A stretch of 64,000 bases of DNA from the human T2T-CHM13v2.0 reference genome, Homo sapiens, in assembly GCF_009914755.1 (NCBI RefSeq), contig NC_060939.1; one strand, 5' to 3'. This document shows, piece by piece, positions 46,425-57,750 of this stretch. Each line of letters begins with the position of its first letter. Positions within the stretch are counted from its first letter, which is position 1. The notes below the pieces were generated by a model, which did not search any database, was not told the DNA's origin, and saw only the letters and a list, made by a program, of their open reading frames with translations. Made by a program: the position numbers and the translations under genes.

Positions 46425-48552
46425 AAATAACAGCTTTGTTGACATAAATTACGTATCATAAAATTCACCCTTTTAAATCATTCAATGCAGTGGTTTTAAT
46501 GTATTTGTGGAGTTGCACAATCACCAAGGTCTAATTTTAGGACATTTTAATCACCCCCAAAAGAAACCTCATACTCATTAGCATATACTTGTCATTCTCC
46601 CCTGCCCCCAGTCTCTGAGTCTCTGGAAACCATTAATCTACTTTCTGTCTTTATGGATTTGCCTATTCTGGACATTTCATAAAAATAGAATTATATATAG
46701 CTTTTGTGTCTGGCATCTTTAACTTAGTCTAATATTTCCAAGTTCATCCGTGTTGCAGTTTGGATCAATACATTTATTTTTATATCCTAGTAATATTTCA
46801 TTGACTGGTTATATCATATTTTGTTTATCCATTCAGTAGTTGATGAACAATTGAATTGTCTCTACTTTTTAGCTATTATGAATAATGCTACTGTGAACAT
46901 CTGTGCAAGTTTGTCCATGGACATATTTTCAGTTTTCATCAGTATATATCTAGGAGTGAAAACGATGGGTCTTTAGGTAACCACATTTAACTTTTGAGGA
47001 ACTGCCAAACTGTTTTCCAAAGCAGCTGCACTATTTTACATTTTACCAGCAGTGTATAAGGGTTCCAATTTCTTCACATCCTTGCCAATACTTGTTATTT
47101 CCATCTTTTTTATTATAGCCAATCCTACTGGGTGTGAAATGGTATCTCATTGTCCTTCAGTTTGCATTTGCTGATGACTAATGGTGTTGAGCATCTTTTC
47201 ATATGCTTATTGACTATTTGTCTTTAGAGAAATGTCTATTCCAATCCTTTGCCCATTCTTTGATTGAATTATTGGTGTTTTGTTGAGTTGTAAGAGTGCT
47301 TTATTCTGGATATTAGACCTTTATCAGATATATGATTTGCAAATGTTTTTTCTCATTTTGTGGGTTGTCTTTTCACTTTCTTGATGATGTCCTTTGAAAC
47401 ACAAAAGCTTTTAATTTTGATAATGTCCAGTTTATCTATTTTTTCTTTTGTTGCATGTGCTTTTGGTATCATATCTAAGAAATCTTTCCTGATCCAAGGA
47501 ATGTTTTTACTCCTGTTTTCTTCTAACAGTTTTATAGTTTTAGCTCTTACATTTAGGCCTATGATTCATTTTAAATTAATTTTTGTATAGTGTATGAGGA
47601 AGGGGTCCAACTTCATTTTTTGTATAAGGGCATCCAGTTGCCCCAGGACGATTCATTGAAATGATTACCTTTGCCATTGAATTATTTTATACTATTGCTG
47701 AAAATCAATTGACCATAAGTAGAAGGACTTTTTTTCCTGTATTCCCAGTTCTTTACCATTGATCTGTATATTTAATCTTATGCCAGTACTGCACTATCAT
47801 TAGTGTGGCTTTGTAGTAAGTTTTGAAATCAGAAACTGTGAGTCCTTCAACTTTGTTCTTTTTCAAGATTATTTTGATTATTCTGGATTCCTTGTATTGC
47901 TATATGAATTTTATGATAAGCTTATCAATCTACATAAAACATGCTAGCTGGAATTCTGATAGAAATTGTTTTGAATCTGCAGATCATTTGGGGGAGTATT
48001 ACCATCTTAACAACATTAGGACGTTCATTATCAAGTATGACACTAGCTGTAGGTTTTTTATCGATGGTCTTTCATTAGGTTGAAGAAATTCCCTTCTATT
48101 CCTGATTTGCTGAGGTTTTTTATTAAGAAAGGATGTTGGAATTTGTCCATTTTTTCTGTGTTTATTGAGCTGATTCTGTGGTTTTTGTATTTTTTAATTC
48201 TGTTGGTATTATATTAGTTGATTTTCAGATGTTTACCTGACTTTGCATTCTTAGAATAAATCCCAGTTGGTTGTAGTGTAAAACACTGGATATTTTATAT
48301 GGCTGGATGTGGTTTTGCTAGTATTTCGTTGATGGTTGTAACATCCACATTCATAAGGAATATTGGTCTGTAGATTTTTTTCTCTTGTGAAATCTTTGTC
48401 TGGTTTTGGTATGGTGGTAATGAATGAATTGGCAAGTATTCTCTCCTTTTCTATTTTTTAATGGAAAAGCTTGAGAAAGATTGGTGTTAATTCTTTAAAA
48501 GTTGAGTGGAATTTATTGGTAAAGCATCTGGGCCTGGGATTTTTATGGGAAG
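46425..48552 (-). mobile_element. L1MB element, 3' part (continues at 56025-57750)
   Basis: aacagctttgttgacataaattacgtatcataaaattcacc 3' end. ORF2 antisense runs to catctgggcctgggatttttatgggaag. Confidence 0.85.
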
Positions 48553-48590
48553 TTTTTTTTTTTTTTTTTTTTTTTTTTTTTTTTTTTTTT

Positions 48591-55116: not shown

Positions 55117-56024
55117 CTTTGTGGTTTTATCTACTTTTCGTCTTTGATGATGGTGATGTACAGATGGGTTTTTGGTGTGGTTGTCCTTTCTGTTTGTTAG
55201 TTTTCCTTCTTACAGAGAGGACCCTCAGCTGCAGGTCTGTTGGAGTACCCTGCCGTGTGAGGCGTCAGTGTGCCCCTGCTGGGGGGTGCCTCCCAGTTAG
55301 GCTGCTCGGGGGTCAGGGGTCAGGGACCCACTTGAGGAGGCAGTCTGCCCCTTCTCAGATCTCCAGCTGCGTGCTGGGAGAACCACTGCTCTCTTCAAAG
55401 CTGTCAGACAGGGACATTTAAGCCTGCAGAGGTTACTGCTGTCTTTTTGTTTGTCTGCGCCCTGCCCCCAGAGGTGGAGCCTACAGAGGCAGGCAGGCCT
55501 CCTTGAGCTGTGGTGGGCTCCACCCAGTTGGAGCTTCCGGGCTGCTTTGTTTACCTAATCAAGCCTGGGCAATGGTGGGCGCCCCTCCCCCAGCCTCGCT
55601 GTCGCCTTGCAGTTTGATCTCAGACTGCTGTGCTAGCAATCAGCGAGACTCCGTGAGCGTAGGACCCTCCGAGCCAGGTGCGGGATATAATCTCGTGGTG
55701 CATCGTTTTTTAAGCCCGTCGGAAAAGCGCAGTATTCGGGTGGGAGTGACCCGATTTTCCAGGTGCCGTCCGTCACCCCTTTCTTTGACTCAGAAAGGGA
55801 ACTCCCTGACCCCTTGCGCTTCCCAAGTGAGGCAATGCCTCGCCCTGCTTCTGCTCGCGCAGGGTGCGCGCACCCACTGACCTGCGCCCACTGTCTGGCA
55901 CTCCCTAGTGAGATGAACCCGGTACCTCAGATGGAAATGCAGAAATCACCCGTCTTCTGCGTCGCTCACGCTGGGAGCTGTAGACCGGAGCTGTTCCTAT
56001 TCGGCCATCTTGGCTCCTCCCCCC
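55117..56024 (-). promoter_or_regulatory. L1 5' UTR: CpG-rich internal sense promoter with YY1 site, plus antisense promoter
   Basis: caagatggcc YY1 motif near the 5' end; many CpGs retained at 55600-56010. Confidence 0.8.
55572..55880 (+). CDS. L1 antisense ORF0-like frame (102 aa, C-terminally extended)
   Basis: MVGAPPPASLSPCSLISDCCASNQRDSV... from ATG 55572, within ORF-track entry 55503-55880. Confidence 0.55.
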   Translation: MVGAPPPASLSPCSLISDCCASNQRDSVSVGPSEPGAGYNLVVHRFLSPSEKRSIRVGVTRFSRCRPSPLSLTQKGNSLTPCASQVRQCLALLLLAQGARTH

Positions 56025-57750
56025 TTGTGGGAAGTTTTTAATTATTATTATGGATTCAATATCTTGTTATGAATCTATTCAGATTTTCTCTTTATTCTCA
56101 AGTCAAATTGACCAGTTTGTCTTTCTAGGAATATACTCATTTCATCTAGGCTACTGAGTTCATTGGCAAACAATTATTCATTCCCTTATAGTCCTTTTGG
56201 TTTCTGTAAGGTAGGCAGATATCTGCCCCCTTCTTTATTCTTAATGTTAGCAATTTAAGTTTTCCCCTCTCTTTTCCTTTTCAGTCTAGCTAAAGGTTTG
56301 TCAGTTTTGTGAATCATATCAAAGAACCAACTTCTATTGATTTTCTCTATTGTTTTTCTATTTTCTGTTTTATGTATTTCTACTCTAATCTTTATTATTT
56401 TCTTCCTTCTACTTGCTTTGAATTTAGTTTACTATCCTTTTTCTAGTTTATTAAGGCAGACATTTAGGCTTTCTATTTGAGATCTTTTTTTAAATATAGG
56501 CCTTTATAGCTAGACATTTCTAAGTACAGCTTAATTGTGTTCCATATATTGTACTTTCATTTTCATTAATCTCAAGGTATTTCCTAATTTCCCTTGTGAT
56601 TTCATCTTTGACAATTGATTATTTAGGATTATGTCATTCAATTTCCACATATCTGAGAATTTTCCAAATTTCCTTCTCTTATTGATTTTTAATTTTATTC
56701 AATTTTTGTTGGAGGGCACATTTATTGAGGCTTGTTTTATGGCCTAACATATGATCTTTTCTGGAAAATATCTCATGGGCACTTGTGGAGAATGTGTATA
56801 TCACTGTTTGAGGTGGAATGTTCATAGATGTCTATTAGGTCTAGTTGGTTTATAGCATTTTTCAAATCTTCTGCTTTCTTGTTGATAGTCTATTGGTTCT
56901 ATCCATTATTGAAACTGGGTTACTGAAATCTCTCTTATTGTTGAATTGTCTTATTTCTCCTTCAATTCTCTCAATCTTTGCTTTATATATTTTGAAGCTC
57001 TGTTGTTAGGTGCATATATATTTGTAATTGTTTTGTGTTTGTTGAATTGACCCTTTTATTTATGTTCCTAATGCGTTGATCCTTTTATTATTAAAAAAGT
57101 CCTTCTTTGTCTCTGTTAACACTTTTTGCTTTGACGTCTATTTCATCTGATATAAATATAGCTGCTCCAATTCTTTTTTGTTTACTGTTTGCATGCTATA
57201 TGTTTTGTCATCTTTTTCTTTCAACCTATTTGTACATTTGAATCTAAAGTGCATCATATTGTAGGCAGCATATCGTTGGATCATGTTTTTATCTATTCTA
57301 CAGTTCTTGGCCTTTTGATTGGAGTGGTTTTTCCACTAAATTTGATTAGTGTTTAGTTTACATTTAATAAAATTACTGATGAGGTAAGATTTATGTCTGC
57401 TATTCTCCATTTGTTTTCTATATGTCTTTCATCTTTTTTGTTTCTTTATTCCTTTATTACTTCCTTCTTTTGTGTTAAATAAATATTATCTAGCATATAA
57501 TTTTAATTCTCTTGTTGTTTCTTTTACTATTTTTTTGAGAAATACTCAGTGGTTTTCTTGGAGATTGCAGTTAACATCTTAACTTAAGCAATCAAGTTCA
57601 GATTAATACCATTGTAATTTTAATAGTATATAAAAATTTGCTCCGATATAGCTCCACTTCTTCCTCCCTCCTTTGTGCTATTATTGTCACACATGTCATT
57701 ATATTATAAACCCATCAATGCAGTTTTATAATTAATAATTTATGCAGTTG
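56025..57750 (-). mobile_element. L1MB continuation (ORF2 endonuclease region)
   Basis: gggaagtttttaattattatt...ctattcagattttct picks up exactly where 48552 left off. Confidence 0.85.

What the first reader, a model, noticed from the sequence alone, without database searches (positions are those of the whole stretch)
48543..56039. Full-length young L1 carrying a 1.4-kb 3' transduction: one 7.5-kb retrotransposition event
Seen: the L1's own A-tract (~49985-50002) has no matching TSD. Instead ttatgggaagttttt (48543-48557) and ttgtgggaagttttt (56025-56039), 14/15 identical, bracket the L1 plus 1.4 kb of extra DNA ending in a 38-nt poly(A). The right copy is followed by AA, a perfect TTTT/AA L1 endonuclease site. 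The old L1MB reads continuously once 48553-56024 and one TSD copy are removed. Known: L1 read-through mobilises 3' flanks. Inference: 48591-49984 is a copy of the 3' flank of an active source L1 elsewhere, and it tags that lineage. Repeat annotation alone would list the LTR, Alu and L1 as independent insertions.
Basis: partly seen in the sequence, partly recalled or inferred. Interest (0 to 1): 0.82.

Follow-up and report, generated by a model that had tools for sequence, protein, structure and literature searches.

The report
L1 carrying a 3' transduction
A full-length primate L1 retrotransposon in a TEX9 intron carried 1.4 kb of chromosome 1 DNA with it when it inserted, by the well-known process of 3' transduction, so the finding is real but ordinary.

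Summary
A 15-nt direct repeat (14/15 identical) brackets window 48558-56024. Read on the minus strand, that block is a full-length L1, its own short A-tract, 1.4 kb of non-L1 DNA and a 33-38 nt poly(A). The 1.4 kb has exactly one other copy in this genome, at C1:56966310-56967714 (1405 bp, no gaps, 98.2% identical). On chr1 the sequence continues past the point where the window copy turns into poly(A). That point lies 17-19 nt after an AATAAA inside an old LTR-like repeat. So the chr15 copy was made through RNA from chr1, in one event with the L1. The Alu and the LTR-like repeat inside the segment were carried along and did not insert here separately.

Three corrections apply. The donor site has no L1 in this genome: no young L1 lies within 27 kb upstream. 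No other element carries the tag, so it marks no surviving lineage. The L1 is not human-specific: it has GAG at the Ta/pre-Ta diagnostic site, a premature stop in ORF2, and about 1.8% donor-copy divergence. The source element is therefore inferred and was not seen. A template-switch or RNA-ligation chimera is an unlikely rival. This is a textbook 3' transduction of low novelty.

The parts
48543..48557 (.). Left copy of the 15-nt target-site duplication (TTATGGGAAGTTTTT). In the uninterrupted target it was followed by AA, the L1 endonuclease site TTTTT/AA.
48558..48590 (-). Poly(A) tail of the composite insertion. On the + strand it is part of the 38-nt T run at 48553-48590. It is not templated at the chr1 donor, except possibly the 2 A's at 48589-48590.
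48591..49993 (-). Transduced segment. It is an RNA-mediated copy of C1:56966310-56967714 (1405 bp aligned with no gaps, 25 mismatches, 8 of them CpG-associated). The bases at 49992-49993 could belong either to this segment or to the L1 A-tract.
48608..48613 (-). AATAAA polyadenylation signal (TTTATT on the + strand), 17-19 nt upstream of the poly(A) addition point. It lies inside the LTR-like repeat.
48591..49018 (-). 3' part of an old LTR-like interspersed repeat, carried along with the L1. Other genomic copies are 68-81% identical. At the donor the repeat spans C1:56966868-56967746, starts with TG, ends with CA, and continues 32 bp past the poly(A) site. The family was not named.
49019..49322 (+). 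Alu carried along with the L1 (antisense to it). It sits inside the LTR-like repeat, is present at the same place in the chr1 donor, and has its own degenerate flanking repeat (AGAAATTC.../AGAAACTC...).
49323..49435 (-). 5' part of the same LTR-like repeat. The minus strand starts TGTTGACAAAG at 49435. Other genomic copies are 79-87% identical.
49436..49991 (-). Low-copy donor DNA that lay directly next to the inferred source L1. Only two copies exist in the genome. It holds no convincing ORF and no Rfam family.
49992..50002 (-). The L1's own short A-tract (11 A, of which 2 could be donor-templated). It follows ...GTATAATT, so the L1 end carries ATTAAA rather than AATAAA.
50003..56024 (-). Full-length L1 body (5'UTR, ORF1, ORF2, 3'UTR), starting GGGGGGAGGAGCCAAGATGG at 56024. 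It has GAG at 50097..50095 (L1PA2 or older). The best genomic relatives are 97-99% identical over the last 607 bp.
54100..55116 (-). ORF1, open for 338 aa. It has the L1 trimerisation, RBD-like and dsRBD-like domains and matches solved human L1 ORF1p structures.
50209..54036 (-). ORF2, 1275 codons in one frame with a single premature stop at codon 34 (53937..53935) and no frameshift. It has endonuclease and RT domains and matches solved human L1 ORF2p over residues 99-1275.
56025..56039 (.). Right copy of the target-site duplication (TTGTGGGAAGTTTTT), directly next to the L1 5' end and followed by AATT.
48034..48548 (-). Old L1 (target element), part downstream of the insertion. It aligns to young-L1 nt 3388-3916.
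56028..56520 (-). Old L1 (target element), part upstream of the insertion. It aligns to young-L1 nt 2879-3386.

Best explanation
This is one LINE-1 retrotransposition event with a 3' transduction.

Inferred: a full-length L1 of an ape-age subfamily (L1PA2 or slightly older) once sat on the + strand of chr1, directly upstream of C1:56966310. Its transcript read through the element's own weak 3' signal (ATTAAA in this copy) and its short genomic A-tract. It continued for 1.4 kb through unique DNA and into an old LTR-like repeat that already held an Alu.

Shown: the RNA was cleaved and polyadenylated 17-19 nt after that repeat's AATAAA.

Inferred from the sequence hallmarks: the L1 machinery nicked a TTTTT/AA site inside an old L1 in what is now a TEX9 intron on chr15. 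It primed on the new poly(A) tail and copied the whole 7.5-kb RNA, leaving a 15-bp target-site duplication.

Inferred: the source allele on chr1 was later lost or never became fixed, so in this genome only the empty donor site remains. The 25 differences in 1405 bp (1.78%; Poisson 95% range about 1.15-2.6%) place the event roughly in the common ancestor of the African great apes. That dating is an inference from recalled human-ape divergences.
For: 1. A 14/15 TSD brackets the composite, and there is none around the L1 alone.
2. The right TSD copy is followed by AA, giving the TTTTT/AA endonuclease site.
3. The old L1 target is continuous across the insertion: L1 nt ...3386 | 3388....
4. The extra 1.4 kb has exactly one paralogue, C1:56966310-56967714. 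It is gapless and 98.22% identical, and it includes the Alu and the LTR-like repeat. The first 40 nt occur at only these 2 places in the genome with <=3 mismatches, and the reversed-pattern control gave 0.
5. The direction of copying is fixed. chr1 continues with non-A sequence where the window has poly(A). The LTR-like family similarity runs 32 bp further in 5 of 12 family loci and ends in CA. AATAAA lies 17-19 nt upstream of the addition site.
6. The L1 keeps its complete 3' end and an 11-nt A-tract in front of the donor DNA, as expected for read-through of a genomic L1-(A)n-flank arrangement.
7. The donor junction starts AAGAAATAAGG. This is A-rich, like the start of an L1 TSD.
8. The ages agree. 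The L1's last 607 bp are 97-99% identical to 39 of the 40 scored relatives, out of 1169 candidates, while donor and copy are 98.2% identical.
9. Background: about 10% of L1 insertions carry 3' transductions (passage in PMC2768975). Source elements absent from the reference are known (passage in PMC9311842).
Against: The source L1 itself was not observed. There is no young L1 anywhere in C1:56939001-56972000. Megablast gave 0 hits, and sensitive blastn found only a 72%-identical old fragment on the opposite strand, 4.5 kb upstream.

No sibling insertion shares the tag, so nothing independent shows that an L1 ever fired from that site.

The two bases before the donor junction are AC, not the TT of the TT|AAAA consensus.

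No ape or other human genome could be examined here, so neither the empty chr15 site nor a filled chr1 site was seen.
Confidence: 0.88

Rival explanations
1. A 'reverse-order' chimera made without any neighbouring L1. Reverse transcription would start on the poly(A) tail of an ordinary chr1 transcript that ended at the LTR's AATAAA. After 1.4 kb it would switch template to the poly(A) tail of a full-length L1 RNA and copy all of it. Alternatively, the two RNAs were ligated or trans-spliced beforehand.
For: The donor site has no L1 in this genome, and none lies within 27.3 kb upstream. The junction has a 2-3 nt A/T microhomology and a T-rich cDNA end that could pair with a poly(A) tail. L1 chimeras with other RNAs do exist (Law & Burns bioRxiv 2025, abstract and Introduction read).
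Against: In the described chimeras the non-L1 RNA lies 5' of an L1 3' end, and priming is on the L1's own poly(A), consistent with cis preference. Here the order is the opposite, and the L1 is full length at 6 kb. This rival also needs an otherwise unsupported + strand transcript on chr1. An empty donor is explained more simply by an unfixed source allele, and non-reference sources are documented. Ordinary 3' transduction is common, at about 10% of events.
Confidence: 0.07
2. The source L1 lay farther upstream on chr1, and the read-through RNA lost the intervening DNA by splicing or internal deletion before it inserted.
For: Only the absence of an adjacent L1 at the donor.
Against: There is no young L1 in 27.3 kb upstream. 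The donor junction (…GGGCTAATTCAC|AAGAAATAAGG) has no pyrimidine tract in front of it. The L1's A-tract is retained at the junction, so any splice donor would have to lie inside a poly(A) run.
Confidence: 0.02
3. Two independent insertions. In this reading a retrocopy of the chr1 transcript inserted first, and an L1 later landed exactly at its 5' edge, or the reverse order.
For: None beyond the fact that repeat annotation lists the pieces separately.
Against: The TSD copies lie next to the L1 5' end on one side and the poly(A) of the 1.4 kb on the other. The L1 alone has no TSD. A second insertion exactly at the boundary, leaving no duplication of its own, is very improbable.
Confidence: 0.01

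Closest known systems
L1-mediated 3' transduction. The primary papers (Moran 1999; Holmes 1994 LRE2; Goodier 2000; Pickeral 2000; Szak 2003) are recalled or were seen only in a reference list. PMC9311842 and PMC2768975 were read as passages.
   Same: The L1's own 3' end and A-tract are followed by unique flank. A downstream AAUAAA was used 10-40 nt before the cleavage site. There is a second poly(A). The TSD encloses the whole composite. The insertion is at a TTTT/AA site. The donor is on another chromosome and continues past the poly(A) site.
   Different: The source L1 is absent from the donor site in this genome, and no sibling insertions share the tag. At 1.4 kb the segment is longer than the 7-997 nt range reported for polymorphic events in PMC9311842 (abstract passage). 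The terminator is the poly(A) signal of an old LTR-like repeat, and an Alu was carried inside the segment.
U6/L1 and other template-switch or ligation chimeras (Law & Burns bioRxiv 2025, Introduction read)
   Same: Two unrelated RNAs end up in a single TSD-flanked, endonuclease-site insertion.
   Different: In those chimeras the foreign RNA is 5' of a (usually truncated) L1 3' end. Here the foreign part is 3' of a full-length L1 and carries the poly(A) tail.
SVA 3' transduction (PMC9311842, passages)
   Same: The same read-through and downstream polyadenylation mechanism, mobilised by the L1 machinery.
   Different: The carrier here is an autonomous full-length L1, not an SVA.

Membership tests
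L1 3' transduction event | An L1 3' end with its own A-tract is followed directly by non-L1 sequence in the same orientation | tested here: met
   ...GTATAATT(A)11 is followed by GAAATAAGGAGTC..., which is colinear with chr1.
L1 3' transduction event | A second, non-templated poly(A) tail ends the extra sequence | tested here: met
   There is a 38-nt A run. The donor reads ...GCTTTAACTGTGAATG at that point.
L1 3' transduction event | A polyadenylation signal in the donor lies 10-40 nt upstream of the new poly(A) | tested here: met
   AATAAA at 48613..48608, 17-19 nt before the addition point.
L1 3' transduction event | The target-site duplication encloses L1 plus extra sequence, with none around the L1 alone | tested here: met
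   A 14/15 TSD at 48543-48557 and 56025-56039. None of 100 shuffles gave two matches at <=1 mismatch. No alternative repeat was found.
L1 3' transduction event | An L1 endonuclease-type target site (TTTT/AA) | tested here: met
   GTTTTT/AATT at the right TSD copy. The consensus motif is given.
L1 3' transduction event | The extra sequence has a donor paralogue that continues beyond the poly(A) site | tested here: met
   C1:56966310-56967714 is 98.22% identical over 1405 bp. The LTR-like repeat runs on for another 32 bp.
L1 3' transduction event | At the time of the event the donor lay immediately 3' of a transcribed full-length L1 | tested here: inconclusive
   No young L1 lies in C1:56939001-56972000 of this one haploid genome. 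The ancestral or alternative allele cannot be examined with these tools.
Full-length LINE-1 (L1PA lineage) | ORF1p with trimerisation, RBD-like and dsRBD-like domains; ORF2p with endonuclease and RT domains; an element of about 6 kb with a 5'UTR | tested here: met
   Pfam PF17489, PF02994 and PF17490 for ORF1p; PF03372/PF14529 and PF00078 for ORF2p. PDB matches to L1 ORF1p and ORF2p. The body is 6022 bp.
Retrotransposition-competent L1 (both ORFs intact) | ORF1 and ORF2 are both open | tested here: not met
   ORF1 is open. ORF2 has one premature stop at codon 34.
Human-specific L1HS (Ta or pre-Ta) | ACA (Ta) or ACG (pre-Ta) at the diagnostic 3'UTR trinucleotide | tested here: not met
   GAG at 50097..50095, which means 'L1PA2 or older' per a passage in PMC7026601. 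The sequence context used to locate the motif is recalled.
Template-switch L1 chimera (U6/L1 type) | The non-L1 RNA lies 5' of an L1 3' end, and the poly(A) tail belongs to the L1 | tested here: not met
   Here the non-L1 part is 3' of the L1 and carries the tail.
Processed pseudogene / mRNA retrocopy | A spliced (intron-less) copy of a gene transcript | tested here: not met
   The segment is gaplessly colinear with genomic chr1 DNA. It holds no convincing ORF and no Rfam family.

The most novel reading that the evidence does not exclude
No L1 ever sat at the chr1 donor. Instead, the insertion is a 'reverse-order' L1 chimera. Reverse transcription would have primed on an LTR-terminated chr1 transcript and then jumped to the poly(A) tail of a full-length L1 RNA, or the two RNAs were joined beforehand. 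This architecture is the opposite of all chimeras described in the one paper read on this.
Probability: 0.07. Interest if true: 0.45.

Novelty: already known. Interest (0 to 1): 0.18.

Why it matters
The importance is mainly for bookkeeping.

- Four separately masked pieces (L1, unique DNA, Alu, LTR-like repeat) arrived at chr15 in one event. The Alu and LTR copies here should not be counted or dated as independent insertions.
- The 1.4-kb tag is the only trace in this genome of an L1 progenitor that once sat on chr1.
- The insertion should be a clean presence/absence marker among great apes.
- It does not point to a currently active source element. It carries no exon. It lies antisense in a TEX9 intron, so no functional consequence is indicated.

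Tried and rejected
- The older genome-wide transduction catalogues (Szak 2003, Pickeral 2000) are not held, so I could not check whether this locus is already listed. No supplements were opened. Tables there, for example in PMC9311842, cover polymorphic events and may or may not bear on this fixed one.
- A full-text search for TEX9 + transduction + LINE-1 found 0 papers.
- Sibling insertions sharing the tag: none found.
- A young L1 near the donor: none in 27.3 kb upstream or 4.3 kb downstream.
- An exon or RNA gene as cargo: only random stop-to-stop ORFs of <=166 aa, and no Rfam family at gathering score.
- Exact L1 subfamily, LTR family and Alu subfamily names: no repeat library is available, so they were not determined.
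- The splice-junction reading of the donor boundary was rejected.
- A U6/L1 chimera at RNU6-1287P: not supported.
- No ape or other human genomes are reachable, so orthologous empty and filled sites were not tested.
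Full report
**What is in the sequence**

Read on the minus strand, the region runs in this order:
- the right TSD copy (56039..56025);
- a full-length L1 starting GGGGGGAGGAGCCAAGATGG at 56024;
- the L1's 3' end, ...AAAGTATAATT, followed by 11 A (50002..49992);
- 1.4 kb of non-L1 DNA (to 48591);
- an uninterrupted A run (38 nt as T at 48553-48590);
- the left TSD copy (48557..48543).

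The two 15-mers are 14/15 identical. They are the only two matches in the window at <=1 or <=2 mismatches. None of 100 shuffles reached two matches at <=1 mismatch. The chance of such a match at one fixed place is about 2.4e-7. The right copy is followed by AA, so the uninterrupted target read ...GGGAAGTTTTT/AATTATT, an L1 endonuclease site.

Nothing resembling the 5' flank follows the L1's own A-tract. The only other 12-mer match is an A/T-rich coincidence between the target flank and the L1 end.

I used the young L1 as a coordinate ruler for the old L1 in which the insertion sits. The right flank ends at L1 nt 3386 and the left flank starts at nt 3388, so the target is continuous once the insertion and one TSD copy are removed. 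One correction is needed: 49985-49991 belongs to the foreign segment, not to the L1 A-tract.

**The L1**

ORF1 (55116..54100) is open for 338 aa. It has the three L1 ORF1p Pfam domains and matches solved human L1 ORF1p structures.

ORF2 (54036..50209) stays in one frame for 1275 codons, with a single premature stop at codon 34. Its endonuclease and RT domains are recognised. It aligns to solved human ORF2p over residues 99-1275.

At the 3'UTR trinucleotide that separates Ta (ACA) and pre-Ta (ACG) elements from older ones, the element has GAG. A passage in PMC7026601 calls this indicative of L1PA2 or older. The sequence context I used to find the motif is recalled.

The last 607 bp are 97-99% identical to 39 other genomic copies. 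These were 40 scored matches, including the self-match, out of 1169 candidates. So the element is 'young' only in the sense of an ape-age L1PA family. It is not human-specific and, as it stands, not competent.

**The donor**

The 655 bp next to the L1 (49330-49984) have one other full-length match in the whole genome, C1:56966319-56966973 at 98%. The other 38 matches cover only the first ~110 nt, at 79-87%.

The aligned block is window 49993..48589 = C1:56966310-56967714. It is 1405 bp with no gaps and 25 mismatches (98.22%), 8 of them CpG-associated. The first 40 nt of the segment occur only at these two places with <=3 mismatches, and the reversed-pattern control gave 0. The 3' part (48591-49018) likewise has only the chr1 copy at 98%, and otherwise family members at 68-81%.

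The Alu at 49019-49322 lies at the same place in chr1. It was therefore carried along and did not insert at chr15.

**Direction and mechanism**

At the 3' end, chr1 reads ...CTGAATAAAATCTGTTTCACTGCTTTAACTGTGAATGTCC..., while the window reads ...CTGAATAAAATCTGTTTCACTGCTTTA followed by A's. The poly(A) is therefore not templated. It begins 17-19 nt after an AATAAA. This is the signature of cleavage and polyadenylation of an RNA transcribed from the chr1 + strand.

The AATAAA belongs to an old interspersed repeat. That repeat's family similarity starts at C1:56966867-77 in 12 of 12 family loci compared. It runs on to C1:56967746/7, 32 bp beyond the poly(A) site, in 5 of 12. The repeat starts with TG and ends with CA. 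This fits an LTR using its own poly(A) signal, but no repeat library was available to name it.

At the 5' end the homology stops at ...GGGCTAATTCAC|AAGAAATAAGG. In the window, that point is preceded by the L1's complete 3' end and A-tract.

The L1 end in this copy is GTATAATTAAAA, which carries ATTAAA and no AATAAA. Five of the 16 closest relatives' 3' ends that I fetched share that variant, and two of those five are the same insertion in a duplicated segment. The other 11 of 16 keep AATAAA. This fits read-through, though it is not needed to explain it.

**What is missing**

The donor site has no L1. Megablast of the whole young L1 against C1:56939001-56972000 gave 0 hits. Sensitive blastn found only a 72%-identical old 3' fragment on the opposite strand, 4.5 kb upstream. 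No other insertion carries the tag.

The source element is therefore inferred. The simplest reading is an allele that was never fixed or was later lost. Progenitors absent from the reference are known for polymorphic events (passage in PMC9311842), and about 10% of L1 insertions carry transduced flank (passage in PMC2768975).

**Rivals**

A chimera formed by template switching or RNA ligation would also explain an empty donor. However, the chimeras described in the Introduction of Law & Burns have the foreign RNA 5' of an L1 3' end, and priming is on the L1's own tail. Here the order is reversed and the L1 is full length. I give this about 7%.

A distant upstream L1 with splicing is unlikely. 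No young L1 lies in 27 kb upstream, there is no acceptor-like context, and the A-tract is retained.

Two independent insertions are excluded by the placement of the TSD copies.

**Age (inference)**

There are 25 differences in 1405 bp, which is 1.78% (Poisson 95% range about 1.15-2.6%). This is comparable to recalled human-gorilla divergence and well below human-orangutan divergence. The L1's distance to its nearest relatives (1-3%) is of the same size. One TSD mismatch and one nonsense codon fit this age. I could not test ape orthologues.

**Comparison with what is known, and verdict**

Every sequence-level hallmark of L1 3' transduction was tested and met. The one feature that could not be established is the presence of the source L1 at the time of the event.

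The cargo holds no exon-like ORF and no Rfam family. The element lies antisense in a TEX9 intron, according to the annotation given with the finding.

A full-text search for TEX9 + transduction + LINE-1 found nothing. The early catalogues are not held, and supplements were not opened, so I cannot say whether this locus has been listed.

The kind of event is textbook knowledge. The finding is real, well resolved and ordinary.

Noticed in passing
window 49992-50010 (minus strand); loci L021-L036: This L1 ends ...GTATAATTAAAA (ATTAAA, no AATAAA). Five of the 16 closest relatives' 3' ends share the AATT(T)AAAA variant, and 11 of 16 keep AATAAA. This may be a sub-lineage with a weaker terminator.
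   Followed up: partly
L023 (G000:C19:66559-66890) and L024 (G000:C3:201035480-201035810): The two loci are identical over the 110 nt shown, including the flank after the L1 A-tail. They are the same L1 insertion sitting in a segment duplicated between two chromosome ends.
   Followed up: no
window 55280-55832: The RefSeq 'enhancer' feature given with the finding lies wholly inside the L1 5'UTR, at about nt 193-745 of the element.
   Followed up: no
window 13250-13520: The U6 pseudogene RNU6-1287P (minus strand) is followed by A-rich sequence but not by an L1 3' end. Against the young L1 there were only two short weak matches in 12300-13700. It is not an obvious U6/L1 chimera.
   Followed up: partly
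window 56034-56046 vs 49997-50009: The target-site flank (GTTTTTAATTATT) resembles the L1's own 3' end (TTTTTTAATTATA) at 11-12 of 12 positions. I judged this an A/T-rich coincidence. It does not provide a TSD for the L1 alone.
   Followed up: yes
G000:C1:56961449-56961768 (in L011): An old L1 3'-end fragment, 72% identical to the young L1, lies on the opposite strand 4.5 kb upstream of the donor. It is unrelated to the event.
   Followed up: no
window 61940-62548: The HMGB1P33 processed pseudogene is annotated 6 kb from the L1. It was not examined.
   Followed up: no
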